DNA of 50,699 bases from a phage. A program made the translations under genes and the position numbers. The stretch lies in sequence record PZ150740.1, one strand, 5' to 3'. Under the pieces are notes generated by a model that did not search any database, was not told the DNA's origin, and was given only the letters and a program-made list of their open reading frames with translations. Shown in pieces: positions 1,339 to 25,798 of the stretch (its first letter is position 1; each line of letters opens with the position of its first letter).

Positions 1339-1929
1339 CTATTTAATCTGCGTGTGCTTCCATTTGACAGTATTGACGATCTCGTTTACAGCCAGTTCCG
1401 GCTTACCGTCCTGCAAGTGGAAATCATAGTGATGGATTCGATAGTGATAACCGCTCAGGTCAATGTAGTCTCTCGAATCGCCAGCAAACGTGAAGCCGTC
1501 GCGATGCAATCGGCAAATATGCACCTCATGCCCCGCCTTAACGAGCGGCTTGATTTCTTCGGGGAATCCGCCATCACTGATCACAACCGACAAATCTCGG
1601 TACATCTCGTGAATCTCTTCAACCATTCGACGCCCGAAATAGTGATCTCCAAAAACTGGCTTCATTACATCCTCGCTAATCCAGATCATGAATTGTCGAG
1701 GCGACTTGCCACCTAAGATAACTTGAGGCTTTTCTTTTTGCTCTCGGTCGTTGTATAGGCCCATAAATTCATCGTATCGAGTCGGGCCAAGCATAGAAAA
1801 AGCAATGTCGAACATAGGTTGCTTGAATGATGCCTTAACCGCTTGGTAACGATGGCCCGTTAGGTAAGCTGCAATAGTGTCCTTCCCGCAACCTGGCGGC
1901 CCATTAAGGATGATAATGTCTCGTTTCAT
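1339..1929 (-). CDS. P-loop nucleotide kinase (dNMP kinase-like)
   Basis: Walker A GPPGCGKDT at N-terminus, resembling the SGKDT P-loop of phage dNMP kinases as recalled. Confidence 0.6.
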   Translation of the reverse strand: MKRDIIILNGPPGCGKDTIAAYLTGHRYQAVKASFKQPMFDIAFSMLGPTRYDEFMGLYNDREQKEKPQVILGGKSPRQFMIWISEDVMKPVFGDHYFGRRMVEEIHEMYRDLSVVISDGGFPEEIKPLVKAGHEVHICRLHRDGFTFAGDSRDYIDLSGYHYRIHHYDFHLQDGKPELAVNEIVNTVKWKHTQIK

Positions 1930-2323
1930 GATTAATGATCTCCATAGCGAAAAATCGCATTAAATTTTTTCCCGCGCTTCTTGTCTTCGTTGCGCTTCTT
2001 GCGTTGCTTTTTCACAAGCTCCACATGCTCATCGTACCCGCGACGCTTCTTTTTGGTAATGATTTTTTCAAAGTTACGCATCATTTCCCCCTTTAGGTTT
2101 TCTCAAAATGGCGCACTTCATGAATGCGCCATAGCAAGAATCACCACTCAAATTTATGTTTGTCTCTGATGATCTCGTAAATTGCTAACCACACCCAAAC
2201 AAACCAGAAAGCGAGAACGATTTTATCGTCTTTGTCTGTCGCGTCAGAATATTTCACCAACGCGCGGAACGTGAATAAGCCTGAAATGTAAAGAAAAACA
2301 ACCAAAAAAAACAAGTAACCAAA

Positions 2324-2587
2324 TCATTTATTTTCTCCTTCAACTACCAGCGTGTAAAGCAGAACAGGCTCTACCATGTCGCGGCGGCGTGGCTCTCGTG
2401 GTGAATCGGGCCATGCGCATTTCCCGATTGACACAATATGGCCTACCAGGTCACTAAGTTTTGAGATTCCATCTCGACGGATAACGTTGTACCCAATATC
2501 CTTGCCGTTAATAGAATGGATAGCAAAAAAGCTAGGCGCGCCATCAACAACGTCTACCGCTTTAAAAAACTCGATCTTGTTAGTCAT
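2324..2587 (-). CDS. hypothetical protein
   Basis: ORF track; preceded by box promoter unit. Confidence 0.5.
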   Translation of the reverse strand: MTNKIEFFKAVDVVDGAPSFFAIHSINGKDIGYNVIRRDGISKLSDLVGHIVSIGKCAWPDSPREPRRRDMVEPVLLYTLVVEGENK

Positions 2588-2618
2588 GATTTAATCCTCG
2601 TTTGTTGTTGATGGGCTT

Positions 2619-2663
2619 ACTATACCGCAAGCCCGTTAAGATGTTTTAACAAAAAGTGCTATT
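2619..2663 (-). promoter_or_regulatory. box promoter unit (-10-like TATAGT)
   Basis: Perfect box 2643-2663; 18-bp spacer; hairpin GGGCTT/AAGCCC around -10. Confidence 0.55.
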
Positions 2664-3372
2664 ACGCATTAACAAAATCGCCGTCGTTGTGCTTGAACTC
2701 CCAGGCCGTTCCTGCTTCATCACACACGAGAAACGCCGTTTCGTTGTAGCTCCAAACATCATAAACCTTATCTTTTATAAAGTTGGCACTGACAAGGCTG
2801 TCTTTGCTGCCGATGAATCTTGCTCGCTCTGTGATCTTGATAGCATCAACGCCGTGAGATTGTATGTGAGCGTGTGGCTTGTCGTATTCCGTGACCTGAT
2901 AGGTTGTGATCCCCAAGCTGCGGAAGTGCTTAACCACGTTCGGCGAATCGTCAAAGGCGCAAACAATGTTGTCCAGGCCAATAGCGCGCAAGGCTTCTTC
3001 TTTAATAACCGTATCCTTTCGATTGTCCTCCTGGCGGCGCATGATGATTTCGTCAAACTTCACGCCGTTCTCATTCAACCATTTGCAGGTTTCATAGCGC
3101 ACCTCGTCGCTGCGTCCGGTCAGGATGACGATGGCAAATCCCGACACCCACAAACCGTTAATAACCGCGATCGTGCTTTTAATCGGTGAATCTCCGGCGG
3201 CGGCCCTGTTAAATTCGCTCCACGATTCCGTAAGGTGCAAGTTTTCAGTTGGCAGCAAGTGCAAGCGATGCGATCCGTCCGATAGTGTGCCATCCAGATC
3301 AACGATAACAATCGGCTTGCTGGTGATTAATTCGTACTTCTTGCCCCACAGTTCGAAAGTATACTTTTTCAT
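2662..3372 (-). CDS. HAD-superfamily phosphatase
   Basis: N-terminal DxDGT motif (IVIVDLDGT); stop codon in box copy 2643-2663. Confidence 0.6.
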   Translation of the reverse strand: MKKYTFELWGKKYELITSKPIVIVDLDGTLSDGSHRLHLLPTENLHLTESWSEFNRAAAGDSPIKSTIAVINGLWVSGFAIVILTGRSDEVRYETCKWLNENGVKFDEIIMRRQEDNRKDTVIKEEALRAIGLDNIVCAFDDSPNVVKHFRSLGITTYQVTEYDKPHAHIQSHGVDAIKITERARFIGSKDSLVSANFIKDKVYDVWSYNETAFLVCDEAGTAWEFKHNDGDFVNA

Positions 3373-4414: not shown

Positions 4415-4458
4415 ATTATACCTGGCCCCACATTTGAGTTTTAACAAAAAGTGCTATT
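4415..4458 (-). promoter_or_regulatory. box promoter unit (-10 TATAAT, 17-bp spacer)
   Basis: Perfect box 4438-4458; hairpin GGGCC/GGCCC around -10. Confidence 0.55.
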
Positions 4459-5351
4459 TACACTTTGACCTTCCACTTAACCATCGTTCCGCGCTTGATG
4501 CTGATCTCACCCGCAACAGTCCGGTTTTTAGTGCCGCCATAGTGAAGCAGGAGAATAACAACATCATCATGAATTTCGATCGTCTTTGGTGTAGCCGTTA
4601 ATTCATACCAAGTGCCGTCATCAAGCCGGACTCCTTTTAGCGTGGCTGCAACTGGCATATCTTCAATCGCGCCCTGCGTTACGATTTCTTGATAGGCAAA
4701 GGCACTCTTATCAATACGCCAGCCTCCAGGCGCTTTCATTTCGGCGACCGCTTTGTGGATCTCCTCGCCAATGATTTTTTGAATTGAAGTCTTTCCGCCG
4801 CCGAATGGTGTTTCTCCAAACAAGTGTTTTGTAATGTCTTCCACGTAGTAAATCTTATCCTCTTCGTTGTGCGGATTGAATTTGTTGTGACCATTGACAA
4901 AGAAATCAACTTTCAACTCTGATTTCTGACCATCGCTATAAACGCCATTGTCGCGCGATGTGTAGCGAATCGTTGAATTACCAGCGGAGCGGAACGTGAT
5001 CGGATACTTGATATTGTCCACGCTTAAGCACCACAGCTTTTTGTAGTCGCATGTTTTCATATTTACCATCGGAATCTCTGCGCGTTCCGTTGAGCGCACT
5101 GGTAACACCTGGCCCTTATATGGCTTGTAGTGCAAGCATGTGTAGCCTGGCATTGCATAGCCATAGTCTTTAAGTGCGTTGTAGTGCTTGTTATGTGCAT
5201 CAATGAAGTGTTCAATCTCCATGCTTGATGGCGCACGCTTGTAGCTATGCAAATCAACCTTATGGCAGGTTTTTTCATCGGTAAAAATGTAATGACCAAT
5301 ACCGCGAGATTCGAAGGTGATCGGGAATTTAATGTCAGCAAGTTTTAACAT
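4458..5351 (-). CDS. hypothetical protein with internal duplication
   Basis: ORF track; repeated segments ADIKFPITFESRG / VDNIKYPITFRSAG. Confidence 0.5.
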   Translation of the reverse strand: MLKLADIKFPITFESRGIGHYIFTDEKTCHKVDLHSYKRAPSSMEIEHFIDAHNKHYNALKDYGYAMPGYTCLHYKPYKGQVLPVRSTERAEIPMVNMKTCDYKKLWCLSVDNIKYPITFRSAGNSTIRYTSRDNGVYSDGQKSELKVDFFVNGHNKFNPHNEEDKIYYVEDITKHLFGETPFGGGKTSIQKIIGEEIHKAVAEMKAPGGWRIDKSAFAYQEIVTQGAIEDMPVAATLKGVRLDDGTWYELTATPKTIEIHDDVVILLLHYGGTKNRTVAGEISIKRGTMVKWKVKV

Positions 5352-5913: not shown

Positions 5914-6169
5914 TAATATCTGTTGTGACTTGCTGGTGCATTACGTTCTTTCCGCTGTTGTACGTGCTATCCGTTGCGCCTTTGCAATTGGTGTAATAGA
6001 TGGCGCGACCGTTATCATAGAATCTGTATGCTGTGCATCCGTCAACAGTGAACAGGCGACCGACCTTGAAATCTGACTCCGCGCCTACGACAACCGTTGA
6101 TTCTGATGCCTTTTCGCATCCGGTCAGGAGTGTCATTGCCGCCAAAACGCCGATTAATGCCTTTTTCAT
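5909..6169 (-). CDS. lipoprotein (possible Cor-like superinfection exclusion protein)
   Basis: Signal peptide with lipobox LLTGC; small Cys/Tyr-rich mature part; Cor assignment is inference. Confidence 0.5.
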   Translation of the reverse strand: MKKALIGVLAAMTLLTGCEKASESTVVVGAESDFKVGRLFTVDGCTAYRFYDNGRAIYYTNCKGATDSTYNSGKNVMHQQVTTDIK

Positions 6170-6633
6170 TATTGCTCCTCCTCTTTGATGATTTCGCGGA
6201 TCATATCCTGGTAGCGGCTTACGCCCTCACAAGCTCCAGCCAGTTTATCCCCTTCCAGGTCCACGATGTTCGGAATTGCTGCCAGTAAGCGATCGGCAAA
6301 CTTTTTGATCGCCCTTGCCTTGATAGCTGGCAATTCTTCGGGTGTGATGATTTTCCTTTTCGATTCTCGGACCATGCGGAAAACGTAAAATTTATCATCT
6401 TCCGTTTCCTCAACCTTGATGCTTACCCGACCTGCGGCCCTTACTTCTGGAACGCGGTTGATAATGGTCCGGCTGTAGGATGAACTGCGCGTGATCTTGT
6501 AGCAGTCATCGCCGCTTAACATTCCGGCCAGGTCAATTAGTGACATTTTATACTCTTCAATATCGCCACTAGCCAGGCGGCGACCAAGCTCGCGAAGCCA
6601 ATCGCAATAGTCCTTAGTGGTCTTCTGTTCCAT
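6169..6633 (-). CDS. hypothetical early protein (start adjusted to MEQKTTK)
   Basis: ORF track frame; strong RBS GGAGGAAAGGAA before ATG at 6633; first gene after leftward consensus promoter. Confidence 0.5.
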   Translation of the reverse strand: MEQKTTKDYCDWLRELGRRLASGDIEEYKMSLIDLAGMLSGDDCYKITRSSSYSRTIINRVPEVRAAGRVSIKVEETEDDKFYVFRMVRESKRKIITPEELPAIKARAIKKFADRLLAAIPNIVDLEGDKLAGACEGVSRYQDMIREIIKEEEQ

Positions 6634-6664
6634 TTCCTTTCCTCCAGTTGTTGACTGTTGGCGC

Positions 6665-6692
6665 ATTATAAAAGCTATTTGGTGCGTGTCAA
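6665..6692 (-). promoter_or_regulatory. near-consensus sigma70 promoter (TTGACA-16-TATAAT) for leftward early genes
   Basis: Minus strand reads TTGACAcgcaccaaatagctttTATAAT immediately upstream of gene 6169-6633. Confidence 0.6.
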
Positions 6693-10171: not shown

Positions 10172-10756
10172 GTGCGCATACAGCATGAGAATATCGAATA
10201 CGTTAACGTCTGGATTGATGAAAGATTTTACCACCGCGCGCGCTGGGAGGAATGGGGCATTCCTGACTTTATTATGGCATTTCCACCATGCACCGACCTT
10301 GCAAATAGCGGATCTCGCCATTGGGCCAAAAAACGCCTTGAGAATCCATCGTTCCAGGATGAGGCCGCCGACACTTGCAGGATCGCGGCTGATATAGCTG
10401 ATTATTTCGGTGTTCCTTACATGATCGAAAATCCGGTTGGCAAGTTGTCAACGTTATGGCGAAAGCCTGATTATACGTTCCATCCGTGCGATTACGCTGG
10501 CTATCTGCCGGAAGATGATAAACATCCCGACTTCCCTGATATTATTCCGGCGCGGGATCGCTACTTTAAGAAAACGTGCCTCTGGACTGGCAACGGCTTT
10601 GTTATTCCTCCACGCGCTTTAATCCTGCCGAAAGAGGAAGACAAAGATAATCCAGGCTGGGCCAAAACTGGCGGCAAGTCATCGCGCACAAAGATGATCC
10701 GCTCCCTCACTCCGCGCGGATTTGCTCGCGCCGTCTTTGAGTCAAACTCAAAATAG
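10172..10756 (+). CDS. cytosine-C5 methyltransferase-like protein (catalytic core; N-terminus uncertain, frame open from 10055)
   Basis: FPPC (PC-motif-like), ENP(V)G (ENV-like), PARDRYF and GNGFV motifs in C5-MTase order; no ATG for motif-I region. Confidence 0.4.
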   Translation: MRIQHENIEYVNVWIDERFYHRARWEEWGIPDFIMAFPPCTDLANSGSRHWAKKRLENPSFQDEAADTCRIAADIADYFGVPYMIENPVGKLSTLWRKPDYTFHPCDYAGYLPEDDKHPDFPDIIPARDRYFKKTCLWTGNGFVIPPRALILPKEEDKDNPGWAKTGGKSSRTKMIRSLTPRGFARAVFESNSK

Positions 10757-15147: not shown

Positions 15148-16265
15148 TCAATTCATCATTTCTGGATAGTGAACAAATCGCCCCACTTCTCCATGCTCTT
15201 TGTCGTAAATGATAACCGCTGCACGGCGTCGAGATCTCCAGCCACCGCGCGCGGCGTATGCGTCTTTTGCCGCCAGGGTGCTATGCACCTCAACGATGCC
15301 AAGCGACGTTTCCGTCACAGTCTGGTGATGCCAGTGCCCTACGTGCGCATACATAGTTTTTGAGTTTCCGAAGTCCTCCCGCCAATCTGACGCGCACATC
15401 ATTAGCAAAGTCTCAGGTTTGCGCACTGTGTGCCCGTGATGGTACGCAAGGAAAGTTTTTCCGTATTGCGTGTGGTGAACAACGCGAGGAGAAACATCAA
15501 CGTAAACGCGCGGCTCGTTCTCATATGCTGCCGCCATTGCTGCGCGTAGCCAAATCATTCCTGATTGGTCGTGATTCCCCTCTACTACCTGGACCTCAAC
15601 ATGTTTATGCTTTAACAGCATTTTATTAATTGCGCGGCGCACTGCACGTATTGCAACGTAAACCAATTTTGCATATCGGCTATCTTGATCAAGTACGTGA
15701 CCGCTTGCAGGTGTCACCGCCTCCAGGCCGTCGCTATGCAGCATATCGCCACCAATCAGGATAACAGCCTTTTCGCTGTCCGGTGCGCACATCAAAGCAT
15801 AGTCGATAAAGTTATTCATAACGCGCTCTGCCGTCGCAGTATCCCAATTTTCGCCGCATTCGTGCTTATGGGCCATAGCGCCTAAGTGCATGTCAAAGAT
15901 CGGATACAATGAAAGCGTTTCATTATAGTTACGCTCCTGCAATGGAACTGGATCTAATCGCGGCACTTCCTCGCTAAATGCCTCCATTGCTGCGCGCATC
16001 AATGCCTCTAATTGCTCTTTATCCTTGCTGGTTTTTGTCCACTTGAGGATTATGTTGCCTTCTTTGTCAGTCATTACTGACTCACCATGAACACCAAAAC
16101 CAGGCGCTCCAATGGTCGATAACTGTCCTTGCTTTGCAAGACGCGCCGCGCGACGCTCGACGCTTCTCACATTCATTCCGTACTCTTGAGCGATCTGTTT
16201 ATATGTCTTACCTGCCGCCCGTTCGATCTTGAGTTGCTCATCTGTAATTTTTACATTTTTCATTC
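15148..16265 (-). CDS. calcineurin-like metallophosphoesterase with N-terminal HTH-like domain
   Basis: Motifs GGDMLHSDG, EGNHD, HHGH; N-terminal segment YKQIAQEYGMNVRSVERRAARL; start adjusted to MKNVKI. Confidence 0.6.
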
Positions 16266-16357
16266 TGCTACCTATCTCATTACTATATGGTACATAACTG
16301 TAACAGCGATGATAACGGGTAACGGTAGAACAAACAAGCGCCACATGATAACTATCC

Positions 16358-16600
16358 TCATTTATAATATTTGCGAGGCTCTCGGATTTTAGCCATTGCC
16401 TCTTTGAAATCAATTTTTGTTGGAACTGCTGGAACTCTCACCATTTTTCGCGGCCTTTCCTTGAGGAAAGTCATCTTATCGCCGCTAATTATGCTCACAT
16501 CTGCAATATCAAAGTATTGCGCGATCTTCTTTATATCGTCGGCTATTCCGCATTCTTTAGCGTGATTCCATACCGCATCTCTACCTTGCTCAACCTTCAT
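16358..16600 (-). CDS. hypothetical protein (start adjusted to MKVEQGR)
   Basis: ORF track frame. Confidence 0.45.
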   Translation of the reverse strand: MKVEQGRDAVWNHAKECGIADDIKKIAQYFDIADVSIISGDKMTFLKERPRKMVRVPAVPTKIDFKEAMAKIREPRKYYK

Positions 16601-17106: not shown

Positions 17107-17832
17107 TTAGCTCCGTTTGCGTGCGCGACGTTCGGTTACAGAAGGGCAAATATCGCTGATCTTAACGTATCGCGTTTTCTGCTCCTCGCCTTCTTTAAGT
17201 TTGCGCATGACAAAAATCACGCTTCCCTTGTTGTTGCCCTGCACAGGCTCACCAGTCAATCCAGACACAAAGGCGATTCTTCCGGTGCGGGAGTATTCTA
17301 CTCCACCCTCTTCGTAAACCTCGCCAGTGATCCAGATGATTTCAGCCGCGTTTTTCTGCGCTTCATAAAACCATGCTGTAGAGTTGTCGGCTGGCAACAA
17401 AACATCAATTTGGTTGTTGTGCTCCATTTGCTCAATTGCTTTCTTGATAAATGGAGTTGGGTTGCTGTACGGTGGGTTAAGCCATACGTGCTTGTTGCTA
17501 CCCCACCAACGCTTTAAGCAGTTTGTTTCCTTGCTATAGAACTTCTCGCAAACTGCGTTTTCCTGGCTTGCTGCTGCGTCGAGATCGTATTCACCAAATT
17601 CTGATTCCATCCACTCCACGATCTCTTGAGGAGTGCTCCACATATCGCGCACAACGTCCGGCGTGGTGCTTCCAGCGTATCGGTTGCCGCTTACCTTATA
17701 ATATTGATTTGGCTTTACTGCCTGGTAATGGCCTCCAGTTGCAAGGGCATTCCCTATAAACGTTTCTCTCTCCAACTGCTCAAAGCTAACGAATGCGTCA
17801 TGAGTGTCTTTATCTAAAATATCTTTAGCCAT
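17107..17832 (-). CDS. dam: DNA N6-adenine methyltransferase (Dam-like)
   Basis: NPPY motif (WLNPPYSNP); box unit upstream. Confidence 0.75.
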   Translation of the reverse strand: MAKDILDKDTHDAFVSFEQLERETFIGNALATGGHYQAVKPNQYYKVSGNRYAGSTTPDVVRDMWSTPQEIVEWMESEFGEYDLDAAASQENAVCEKFYSKETNCLKRWWGSNKHVWLNPPYSNPTPFIKKAIEQMEHNNQIDVLLPADNSTAWFYEAQKNAAEIIWITGEVYEEGGVEYSRTGRIAFVSGLTGEPVQGNNKGSVIFVMRKLKEGEEQKTRYVKISDICPSVTERRARKRS

Positions 17833-24645: not shown

Positions 24646-25098
24646 TTAGAATGGTATATCATCGTCAAAGTCAATCGGAGGCTGATTGCTTTGCTGTGGC
24701 TGCTGTTGAGTGTTTTGTTGCTGTTGCTGTTGTGGTTGCCCCCAACCTCCTTGCGTTCGCTGTTGATATTGTTGCTGACTTTCCCCACGCTGGCTAAATA
24801 GCAAGTTTGCAAATCCGCCAGGCTGCACGGTGCTGTAAATCTTTCCGTTGTATTCTCGCGTTTCAACTCGCAAGGTATCGCAGGAAACAGAAATAACCTT
24901 GCCTACCTGGAACGCCTCAGCATACCAACCATTCAGGCCGTCTGTTTTCGCGTTAAAGAAAAATACATAGTTTGTATACTGCCAATTGCCTTCACGGTCT
25001 TTATATCGTTCGGAAAGCTCAACAACATATAGCGTGCTGCCGTTAGGCATTTGCTTTACTTTTGGCTCTTTTCGGATCTCACCTGTAATAACGTGCAT
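24646..25098 (-). CDS. ssb: single-stranded DNA-binding protein
   Basis: Gln/Gly-rich linker and acidic C-terminal tail DFDDDIPF; start adjusted to MHVITGEI after RBS. Confidence 0.85.
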   Translation of the reverse strand: MHVITGEIRKEPKVKQMPNGSTLYVVELSERYKDREGNWQYTNYVFFFNAKTDGLNGWYAEAFQVGKVISVSCDTLRVETREYNGKIYSTVQPGGFANLLFSQRGESQQQYQQRTQGGWGQPQQQQQQNTQQQPQQSNQPPIDFDDDIPF

Positions 25099-25112
25099 TT
25101 TGTTTTCTCCTA

Positions 25113-25140
25113 TGACAAAAGGGGCGCAAGCGCCCCGTTT
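25113..25140 (-). terminator. rho-independent terminator after Erf gene
   Basis: GGGGCG-cttg-CGCCCC followed by TTTTGT on minus strand. Confidence 0.5.
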
Positions 25141-25141
25141 A

Positions 25142-25798
<657 letters not shown>

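What the first reader, a model, noticed from the sequence alone, without database searches (positions are those of the whole stretch)
1339..3372. Early nucleotide-metabolism pair: dNMP kinase-like P-loop kinase and a HAD phosphatase
Gene 1339-1929 has an N-terminal P-loop (GPPGCGKDT) most like phage dNMP kinases. Gene 2662-3372 has the DxDGT signature (VDLDGT) of HAD phosphatases such as 5-prime nucleotidases or polynucleotide 3-prime phosphatases. Together they could remodel dNTP pools or, alternatively, act as a split polynucleotide kinase-phosphatase for RNA or DNA end repair. No ligase partner was recognised, which favours the nucleotide-pool reading.
Basis: partly seen in the sequence, partly recalled or inferred. 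Interest (0 to 1): 0.4.

Follow-up and report, generated by a model that had tools for sequence, protein, structure and literature searches.

The report
Phage 3'-phosphatase and nucleotide-kinase gene pair
Two nearby genes of a T1-like coliphage encode a stand-alone copy of the 3'-phosphatase half of T4 polynucleotide kinase and a small kinase built like T4's deoxynucleotide kinase; the pair is common and already annotated in related phages, so it is ordinary, but its true substrates have never been tested.

The parts
1339..1929 (-). gp1-type P-loop nucleotide kinase, 196 aa. The Walker A motif GPPGCGKDT is at nt 1876-1902.
2839..3372 (-). Core of a PNKP-type HAD 3'-phosphatase (residues 1-178). 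It includes an N-terminal beta-hairpin, the DLDGT nucleophile motif (nt 3286-3300), and a flexible flap (residues 28-49) carrying the invariant HRLHLLP..W..FN motif.
2662..2835 (-). C-terminal, beta-rich mini-domain of the HAD protein (residues about 180-236), joined by a low-confidence linker. It is an accessory module that varies between relatives.
   Evidence: pLDDT is about 90 for residues 180-236, and the linker 164-177 is below 50. The domain is absent in 179-183-aa relatives or replaced by CxxC..CxxC tails. It is not similar to the 69-aa ORF that follows the short HAD gene in FritzSarasin.
1932..2587 (-). Three small ORFs between the two genes: 2324-2587 (87 aa), 2141-2314 (57 aa, hydrophobic) and 1932-2084 (50 aa, very basic, with its stop 2 nt before the kinase ATG). 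They are variable filler and not a conserved part of the pair.
   Evidence: In relatives the gap between the HAD and kinase ORFs runs from an overlap to about 2 kb.
6665..6692 (-). Perfect sigma-70 consensus promoter (TTGACA-16-TATAAT). It probably drives the leftward block that contains both genes.
   Evidence: 12 of 12 positions match, and no terminator-like site was found on the minus strand between it and the genes. This is a consensus match only; function was not shown.

Best explanation
The pair is an accessory DNA-precursor cassette of a T1-like phage that lacks its own DNA polymerase, ribonucleotide reductase and ligase. The kinase is a T4 gp1-type deoxynucleoside-monophosphate kinase. 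It would use ATP to convert 5'-dNMPs, released when DNA is broken down, into dNDPs, which host Ndk turns into dNTPs for phage DNA synthesis. The HAD protein is a Mg-dependent aspartyl-phosphatase of the T4 Pnkp clade. It would remove 3'-phosphates from DNA fragments or 3'-phosphorylated (deoxy)nucleotides, so that they can be digested by exonucleases, extended or ligated. Shown here: family, fold and residue conservation of both proteins, and their genomic linkage. Inferred: the substrates and the physiological role.
Against: No biochemical test exists for any member of either subfamily. A 3'-phosphatase and a 5'-dNMP kinase do not act on successive intermediates of one textbook pathway, so this reading does not fully explain their tight linkage and the three fusion clusters. 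gp1 residue R177 (phosphate and base contact) is a conserved Gly (G121) here, and the equivalence of gp1 K37 to K36 is uncertain. No curated Pfam or NCBIfam kinase model reaches its threshold. The residue map rests on weak sequence alignments, not on a structural superposition. The kinase is directly adjacent to a DNA ligase gene in 16 of 80 loci, which fits end repair as well.
Confidence: 0.5

Rival explanations
1. The pair is a non-canonical, split polynucleotide kinase-phosphatase. The HAD protein removes 3'-phosphates and the gp1-like kinase has been recruited to phosphorylate 5'-OH DNA ends. This converts 'dirty' nicks or breaks into 3'-OH/5'-P ends that host LigA (or, in other phages, the adjacent phage ligase) can seal.
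For: Three protein clusters fuse the orthologous HAD and kinase domains in the order phosphatase-kinase (P0257, P0387, P0272). The HAD and kinase ORFs abut or overlap in several unrelated genome types, and Erwinia phage Era103-like genomes carry a contiguous HAD-kinase-ATP-dependent ligase triad. All 79 Drexler-like HAD loci have the kinase downstream. The HAD protein's closest relatives are all end-healing enzymes.
Against: The kinase fold and pocket are of the gp1 type, with conserved Arg and Lys residues that bind an acceptor phosphate in gp1. There is no conserved Asp at the position of the general base Asp35 of T4 Pnk, whose role is described in PMC2831316; D41 is not conserved in A3. In 64 of 80 kinase loci no HAD gene lies within 10 kb, yet the pocket residues are identical. 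Eighteen of 53 HAD loci lack the kinase. 5'-OH DNA ends are uncommon in E. coli (own knowledge). Ligase next to a nucleotide kinase also occurs in T7 (genes 1.3 and 1.7) without any known functional link (own knowledge).
Confidence: 0.27
2. The two enzymes have independent functions. The kinase makes dNDPs. The HAD protein cleans 3'-phosphate-blocked DNA ends, for example after oxidative damage or AP-lyase action, for replication or recombination. Their neighbourhood reflects only shared membership of a mobile DNA-metabolism module.
For: Each gene occurs frequently without the other. The small ORFs inserted between them vary, with gaps from an overlap to about 2 kb. Only 3 fusion clusters were found among 5.8 billion clustered proteins. 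Neighbours of both genes are generic replication and repair genes.
Against: The gene order HAD->kinase on the same strand recurs in several genome types, often with the ORFs abutting or overlapping. The fusions share a conserved linker motif (GPELHG) although they are only 37% identical overall, which suggests the fusion is maintained by selection.
Confidence: 0.13
3. The pair is an RNA-repair or counter-defence device. One version heals tRNA or mRNA cut by anticodon nucleases or HEPN toxins. Another version clears a danger-signal mononucleotide such as m6dAMP, which the Metis defence system senses.
For: T4 Pnkp and Pnkp1, the closest relatives of the HAD protein, heal RNA ends. Metis is triggered by m6dAMP released from degraded host DNA, and its own HAD phosphatase MisB detoxifies that nucleotide. 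This phage carries two DNA methyltransferase genes.
Against: No RNA ligase and no tRNA genes are in the window. E. coli has no ligase for 3'-OH/5'-P RNA ends, and healing such ends would remove the substrate of RtcB (own knowledge). MisB belongs to a different HAD family (PF13419), which gave no hit here. No experiment links Drexlerviridae to Metis.
Confidence: 0.06

Closest known systems
T4 gp1 deoxynucleoside monophosphate kinase (PDB 1DEK)
   Different: Only 15-18% identity. The window protein is 196 aa against 241 aa; gp1 carries a roughly 45-residue insert in its helical domain. gp1 R177 is Gly and R11 is Gly in the window protein. HMMER searches against PDB and Pfam do not connect the two. 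Specificity is unknown; T4 gp1 takes hmdCMP, dGMP and dTMP.
T4 Pnkp (PseT), C-terminal 3'-phosphatase domain (1LTQ, 5UJ0), and Capnocytophaga Pnkp1 (4XRP)
   Different: The window protein stands alone, with no N-terminal PNK kinase domain. It has an 11-residue longer flap after motif I with its own invariant HRLHLLP..W..FN signature. T4 R279 is Ser here. It also has an extra N-terminal hairpin and a C-terminal mini-domain.
Mammalian PNKP
   Same: In the rare fused relatives (P0257, P0387, P0272) the domain order is phosphatase then kinase, as in mammalian PNKP, and the phosphatase is of the HAD type.
   Different: The kinase of mammalian PNKP is a T4-Pnk-like 5'-OH kinase with a catalytic Asp (own knowledge). 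Here the kinase is of the gp1 type, and in the window the two are separate genes.
P. putida PP_1964 and phage T5 Dnk (gp1-like dNMP kinases with tested activity)
   Same: They are gp1-like P-loop kinases carried by mobile elements and phages. PP_1964 supplies dTMP kinase activity in vivo (PMC10653934).
   Different: Direct similarity of the window protein to these two was not measured here. They are longer proteins.
Metis MisB (HAD phosphatase that dephosphorylates m6dAMP)
   Same: It is a HAD phosphatase acting on a mononucleotide released by phage-driven DNA degradation.
   Different: It belongs to a different HAD family (PF13419), is encoded by the host, and acts on a 5'-phosphate.

Membership tests
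T4 gp1-type dNMP kinase (phrog_139) | Membership of the same profile family as T4 gp1 | tested here: met
   The window kinase matches phrog_139 at E 3.3e-51 over profile positions 81-261. T4 gp1 matches phrog_139 at E 1.8e-65 over positions 83-261.
T4 gp1-type dNMP kinase (phrog_139) | gp1 fold (P-loop core plus helical NMP domain) | tested here: met
T4 gp1-type dNMP kinase (phrog_139) | dNMP phosphate- and base-binding residues of gp1 (K37, R68, R132, R177, D175, E181, D204, H206) | tested here: inconclusive
   R62, R78, D119, E125, D151 and R153 are invariant and align to R68, R132, D175, E181, D204 and H206. R177 aligns to G121. The K37 to K36 equivalence is uncertain. The map rests on weak sequence alignments, not on a superposition.
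T4 gp1-type dNMP kinase (phrog_139) | Curated family model (Pfam or NCBIfam) above threshold | tested here: not met
   Only sub-threshold P-loop matches were found, such as AAA_18 at 18.8 bits against a cut-off of 29.4. A profile search of PDB finds only P-loops.
T4 gp1-type dNMP kinase (phrog_139) | ATP:dNMP phosphotransferase activity | not testable with these tools
   An enzyme assay is needed.
T4 Pnk-type 5'-OH polynucleotide kinase | General-base Asp (T4 Asp35) and Arg38 just after strand 2; tunnel-like acceptor site (PMC2831316) | tested here: not met
   The family-invariant residue in this segment is K36. D41 is not conserved in A3. Presence of a tunnel could not be examined.
T4 Pnk-type 5'-OH polynucleotide kinase | Sequence or structural similarity to PNK kinase domains | tested here: not met
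PNKP-type HAD 3'-phosphatase (Pfam PF25109) | Curated model above its gathering threshold | tested here: met
   74.8 bits against 27.6, E 1e-20, residues 21-162.
PNKP-type HAD 3'-phosphatase (Pfam PF25109) | DxDxT nucleophile/acid, motif II Ser/Thr, motif III Lys, motif IV DD | tested here: met
   D25-L-D27-G-T29, T85, K124 and D141-D142 are invariant or nearly invariant in A2 and A4. D165 and D167 of T4 are the essential nucleophile and acid (PMC3592404).
PNKP-type HAD 3'-phosphatase (Pfam PF25109) | Clade-specific Arg and Asp residues of T4 Pnkp (R213, R246, D254, R279). Their importance is recalled from the Shuman laboratory literature and was not re-read here. | tested here: inconclusive
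   R87, R112 and D120 align to R213, R246 and D254, and R279 aligns to S143 (alignment). R87 and D120 are not strictly invariant in A4.
PNKP-type HAD 3'-phosphatase (Pfam PF25109) | Fold closest to the T4 Pnkp phosphatase | tested here: met
Bifunctional Pnkp (T4 PseT type) | PNK kinase domain fused to the phosphatase in one polypeptide | tested here: not met
   The 236-aa protein has the HAD core plus a 57-aa non-kinase tail. It matches only the C-terminal part of phrog_505 (positions 159-292 of 295).
Phage RNA repair system (Pnkp + RNA ligase) | An RNA ligase partner in the genome | tested here: not met
   No ligase was found among the ORFs of the 50.7-kb window that were classified, and there are no tRNA genes.
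5'(3')-deoxyribonucleotidase-type HAD (NT5C) and MisB-type HAD_2 | Match to those family models | tested here: not met
   Neither family was among the Pfam hits at E<=0.1.

The most novel reading that the evidence does not exclude
The conserved HAD->kinase pair, together with its rare fusions and the HAD-kinase-ligase triads in Era103-like phages, is a previously unrecognised type of polynucleotide kinase-phosphatase. In it, the 5'-kinase was recruited from the gp1 dNMP-kinase lineage rather than the T4 Pnk lineage. It would give many phages a DNA end-healing pathway that feeds host or phage DNA ligase.
Probability: 0.25. Interest if true: 0.55.

Novelty: new member of a known kind. Interest (0 to 1): 0.3.

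Why it matters
There are two practical consequences. First, database records label this HAD protein 'polynucleotide kinase' or '3'-phosphatase, 5'-polynucleotide kinase'. The protein has no kinase domain, so those labels are wrong. Second, the conserved pairing with a gp1-type kinase, and the occasional fusion, pose a simple and testable question. Do widespread phages use a 3'-phosphatase plus dNMP kinase to recycle DNA into precursors, or have they built a PNKP-like repair enzyme from a different kinase lineage? Either answer would clarify how small phages without their own polymerase or reductase secure dNTPs or protect their DNA. Nothing here overturns current understanding.

Tried and rejected
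1. Sequence searches of PDB with the kinase and with its family profile found only P-loop matches. Structure prediction was needed to identify the fold.

2. hhalign of the kinase family against gp1 aligned only the N-terminal 74 columns (80% probability). A family HMM aligned gp1 and the T4 Pnk kinase equally weakly. Sequence alone therefore cannot discriminate between them.

3. I looked for a ligase, RNR, thymidylate synthase, polymerase or tRNA in the window and found none.

4. I tested whether the HAD C-terminal tail equals the separate 69-aa ORF of FritzSarasin. There is no similarity.

5. I tested whether the window's 'DNA repair exonuclease' (15148-16413) is the same family as the Metallophos gene that precedes HAD and kinase in podovirus-like contigs. 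A narrow HMM gave no match, so no conserved nuclease-phosphatase-kinase trio is claimed.

6. The first HAD locus search (A2) returned only Drexler-like contigs, because its patterns were too specific. It was repeated with a more diverse alignment.

7. Literature searches found no experimental work on these proteins in T1-like phages, only annotation-level remarks.

8. The first attempt at context-specific residue counts was off by one residue and was corrected.

Full report
WHAT IS THERE

The window is a near-complete genome of a T1-like siphovirus. It belongs to Drexlerviridae, is close to Warwickvirus, and is about 96% identical over 8 kb to phages Poky, tunus, SECphi27 and FritzSarasin/Bas04. 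The quoted motifs are at residues 10-18 (GPPGCGKDT) of the 196-aa protein and residues 24-29 (VDLDGT) of the 236-aa protein.

Both genes have plausible ribosome-binding sites, and the kinase ATG lies 2 nt after the stop of a small upstream ORF. They sit in a roughly 6.6-kb leftward block of mostly small genes. That block starts below a perfect sigma-70 consensus promoter at 6692-6665 (-), and the scan found no terminator-like site on that strand in between. Early transcription by host RNA polymerase is therefore plausible but not shown.

THE KINASE

- Curated libraries give only sub-threshold P-loop matches, and PDB sequence searches see nothing beyond the P-loop.
- The protein matches phrog_139 'dNMP kinase' at E 3e-51. 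T4 gp1, the founding dNMP kinase, falls in the same PHROG over the same profile region (the gp1 sequence was verified as 100% identical to T4 records).
- Next come adenylate-kinase-like proteins, animal phosphomevalonate kinase and MiaA.

The family is large, with 3087 cluster representatives at E<=1e-3. Its invariant residues are N9, G15, K16, D17, K36, R78, I82, S85, E86, K90, D119, F122, E125, D151 and R153.

I used the list of gp1 substrate-site residues in PMC10653934 Table 2 and motif-level alignments to map gp1 onto the family:

| gp1 residue | window-family residue |
|---|---|
| R68 | R62 |
| R132 | R78 |
| M135 | M81 |
| D175 | D119 |
| E181 | E125 |
| R197 | R143 |
| D204 | D151 |
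| H206 | R153 |
| G225 | G175 |
| R177 | G121 (a conserved Gly, so not retained) |
| K37 | K36 (equivalence uncertain) |

The protein therefore appears to keep a gp1-like mononucleotide pocket, including residues that bind the acceptor's 5'-phosphate in gp1. It lacks a conserved Asp at the place of the general base of T4 Pnk (PMC2831316).

THE PHOSPHATASE

- Pfam HAD_PNKP is matched well above threshold (74.8 bits against 27.6, E 1e-20).
- The significant PDB sequence hits are Pnkp1 and T4 Pnkp only.
- The T4 catalytic set is conserved in the alignment: D165/D167, S211, R213, R246, D254, K258 and D277/D278 correspond to D25/D27, T85, R87, R112, D120, K124 and D141/D142. T4 R279 is Ser here.
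- There is no PNK kinase domain. The protein covers only the C-terminal part of the full-length Pnkp PHROG (phrog_505 positions 159-292). The label 'polynucleotide kinase' carried by relatives is a misnomer.

Three features are specific to this clade. One is an N-terminal hairpin. The second is a longer, flexible flap after motif I with an invariant HRLHLLP..W..FN signature. The third, in this phage, is a confidently folded 57-residue C-terminal mini-domain that relatives lack or replace with CxxC..CxxC tails.

T4 Pnkp phosphatase works on 3'-P and 2',3'-cyclic-P polynucleotides and also on the mononucleotide 3'-dTMP (PMC3592404). Family membership therefore does not fix the substrate size.

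ARE THE TWO GENES LINKED?

Yes.

1. Three protein clusters fuse orthologues of exactly these two proteins, in the order phosphatase, then a 60-100-aa linker, then kinase. They are P0257 (403 aa, on a 60-kb phage contig), P0387 (74% identical) and P0272 (37% identical). The linker shares a GPELHG motif.
2. All 79 Drexler-like HAD loci examined carry the kinase downstream on the same strand. The gap between the two ORFs runs from an overlap to about 2 kb, filled with variable small ORFs.
3. In other genome types the HAD and kinase ORFs abut or overlap. These include Erwinia phage Era103-like podoviruses and several groups of 41-45-kb contigs.

The linkage is not obligatory. Only 16 of 80 kinase loci have a HAD gene within 10 kb, and 18 of 53 further HAD loci lack the kinase. 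The kinase pocket residues are invariant in all three contexts examined. That argues the kinase does the same chemistry with or without the phosphatase.

WHAT THE NEIGHBOURS SAY

- A 5'-3' exonuclease gene lies within 6 kb of the kinase in 38 of 80 loci.
- An ATP-dependent DNA ligase gene lies within 6 kb in 23 loci and is directly adjacent in 16. The arrangements are HAD-KIN-LIG or Metallophos-KIN-LIG in Era103-like phages, and LIG-KIN-dUTPase in Erwinia phage Y2-like phages.
- dUTPase lies immediately downstream in 14 loci.
- DNA polymerase A, primase-helicase, endonuclease VII, RuvC and PhoH genes also occur nearby.

This is a replication and nucleotide module, compatible with both readings. 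One observation discriminates. The T4-like Krischvirus G2248 already has a full-length Pnkp and an RNA ligase. It also carries a stand-alone HAD gene 48% identical to ours, whose start overlaps the nrdB stop in the td-nrdA-nrdB operon. That places this HAD clade with precursor metabolism rather than canonical end healing.

MECHANISM

My preferred reading (about 0.5) is a precursor-supply cassette. T1-like phages rely on the host replisome and encode no reductase or thymidylate synthase. Phages commonly rebuild their genomes from host-derived mononucleotides, and I recall the same for T1 itself, which I did not verify here. The kinase would convert 5'-dNMPs to dNDPs. The phosphatase would remove 3'-phosphates that block exonucleases, polymerases or ligases, or would dephosphorylate 3'-phosphorylated nucleotides. 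The authors of the KanT1 paper reached the same annotation-level idea (PMC13164509).

The weakness of this reading is that it does not explain well why the two enzymes are so tightly coupled and sometimes fused.

The main rival (about 0.27) is a non-canonical PNKP in which a gp1-type kinase phosphorylates 5'-OH DNA ends. The fusions and the HAD-kinase-ligase triads favour it. The gp1-like phosphate-binding pocket, the many HAD-less kinases and the rarity of 5'-OH DNA ends in E. coli argue against it. Absence of a phage ligase is not an argument against DNA healing, because host LigA is available. It does argue against RNA repair.

Two lesser alternatives remain: independent functions (about 0.13), and RNA-repair or counter-defence roles, including removal of the Metis trigger m6dAMP (about 0.06).

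NOVELTY

Both proteins are ordinary members of known families and are annotated in close relatives, and the pair has been remarked on in print. What this analysis adds is fourfold:

- the demonstration that the 'PNK' is phosphatase-only;
- structural confirmation that the kinase is gp1-like rather than Pnk-like;
- quantification of the linkage, including the rare fusions;
- contextual evidence on both sides of the substrate question.

No experiment exists for either subfamily, and simple enzyme assays would settle the matter.

Noticed in passing
Kinase homologues P0058, P0064, P0083, P0099, P0104-P0106, P0108, P0109, P0112, P0114, P0115, P0118-P0120, P0255; window SSB gene 24646-25149 (-): Sixteen of 266 kinase homologues, including Escherichia phage JulesPiccard, end in an acidic '..[DE][DE]IPW' tail that mimics the SSB C-terminal tip. 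The window's own SSB ends DFDDDIPF. The window kinase lacks such a tail, and no HAD homologue has one. This suggests that some of these kinases are recruited to SSB-tail-binding replication or repair proteins.
   Followed up: partly
window 2662-2835 (-): The HAD protein carries a confidently predicted beta-rich C-terminal mini-domain of about 57 residues (pLDDT about 90) after a disordered linker. Relatives lack it or have Zn-ribbon-like CxxC..CxxC tails instead. Its fold and function were not identified.
   Followed up: partly
window 6633-6692 (-): A perfect sigma-70 consensus promoter (TTGACA-16-TATAAT, 6692-6665) overlaps the first ATG (6666) of the DUF7174 ORF 6169-6666. The real start is probably Met12 (nt 6633), which matches the 154-aa homologue in FritzSarasin.
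   Followed up: partly
L218 (Escherichia phage vB_EcoM_G2248) 4998-5474: A T4-like Krischvirus with a full Pnkp and an RNA ligase carries an extra stand-alone HAD gene, 48% identical to the window protein. Its start overlaps the nrdB stop in the td-nrdA-nrdB operon.
   Followed up: partly
L021, L025, L034, L040, L045-L047, L051, L064 (just upstream of the kinase): In podovirus-like contigs a calcineurin-like metallophosphoesterase gene, annotated 'DNA repair exonuclease' in Era103, lies just upstream of the kinase, or of HAD plus kinase, sometimes in the position the HAD gene occupies elsewhere. It shows no detectable similarity to the window's own 'DNA repair exonuclease' (15148-16413).
   Followed up: partly
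window 4458-5351 (-): This 297-aa protein of unknown function (phrog_7116) matches its profile in two stretches and shows an internal repeat (IKFPITFESRG... / IKYPITFRSAG...), so it appears to be a tandem domain duplication.
   Followed up: no
window 1932-2084 (-): A 50-aa, extremely basic ORF (KKKRRG...KKQRKKRNEDKKRGKK) ends 2 nt before the kinase start codon. It may be translationally coupled to the kinase, and its function is unknown.
   Followed up: no
window 10172-10756 (+) and 17107-17832 (-): The phage encodes two DNA methyltransferases (phrog_757 and phrog_111).
   Followed up: no
P0257 residues 143-209, P0272 residues 149-257: The linkers of the fused phosphatase-kinase proteins share a conserved 'DG.F.GPELHG' motif, and the P0257 linker weakly matches a small-protein PHROG (phrog_2741, E 2.7e-4). 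The fusion may therefore have absorbed a small intervening gene.
   Followed up: no
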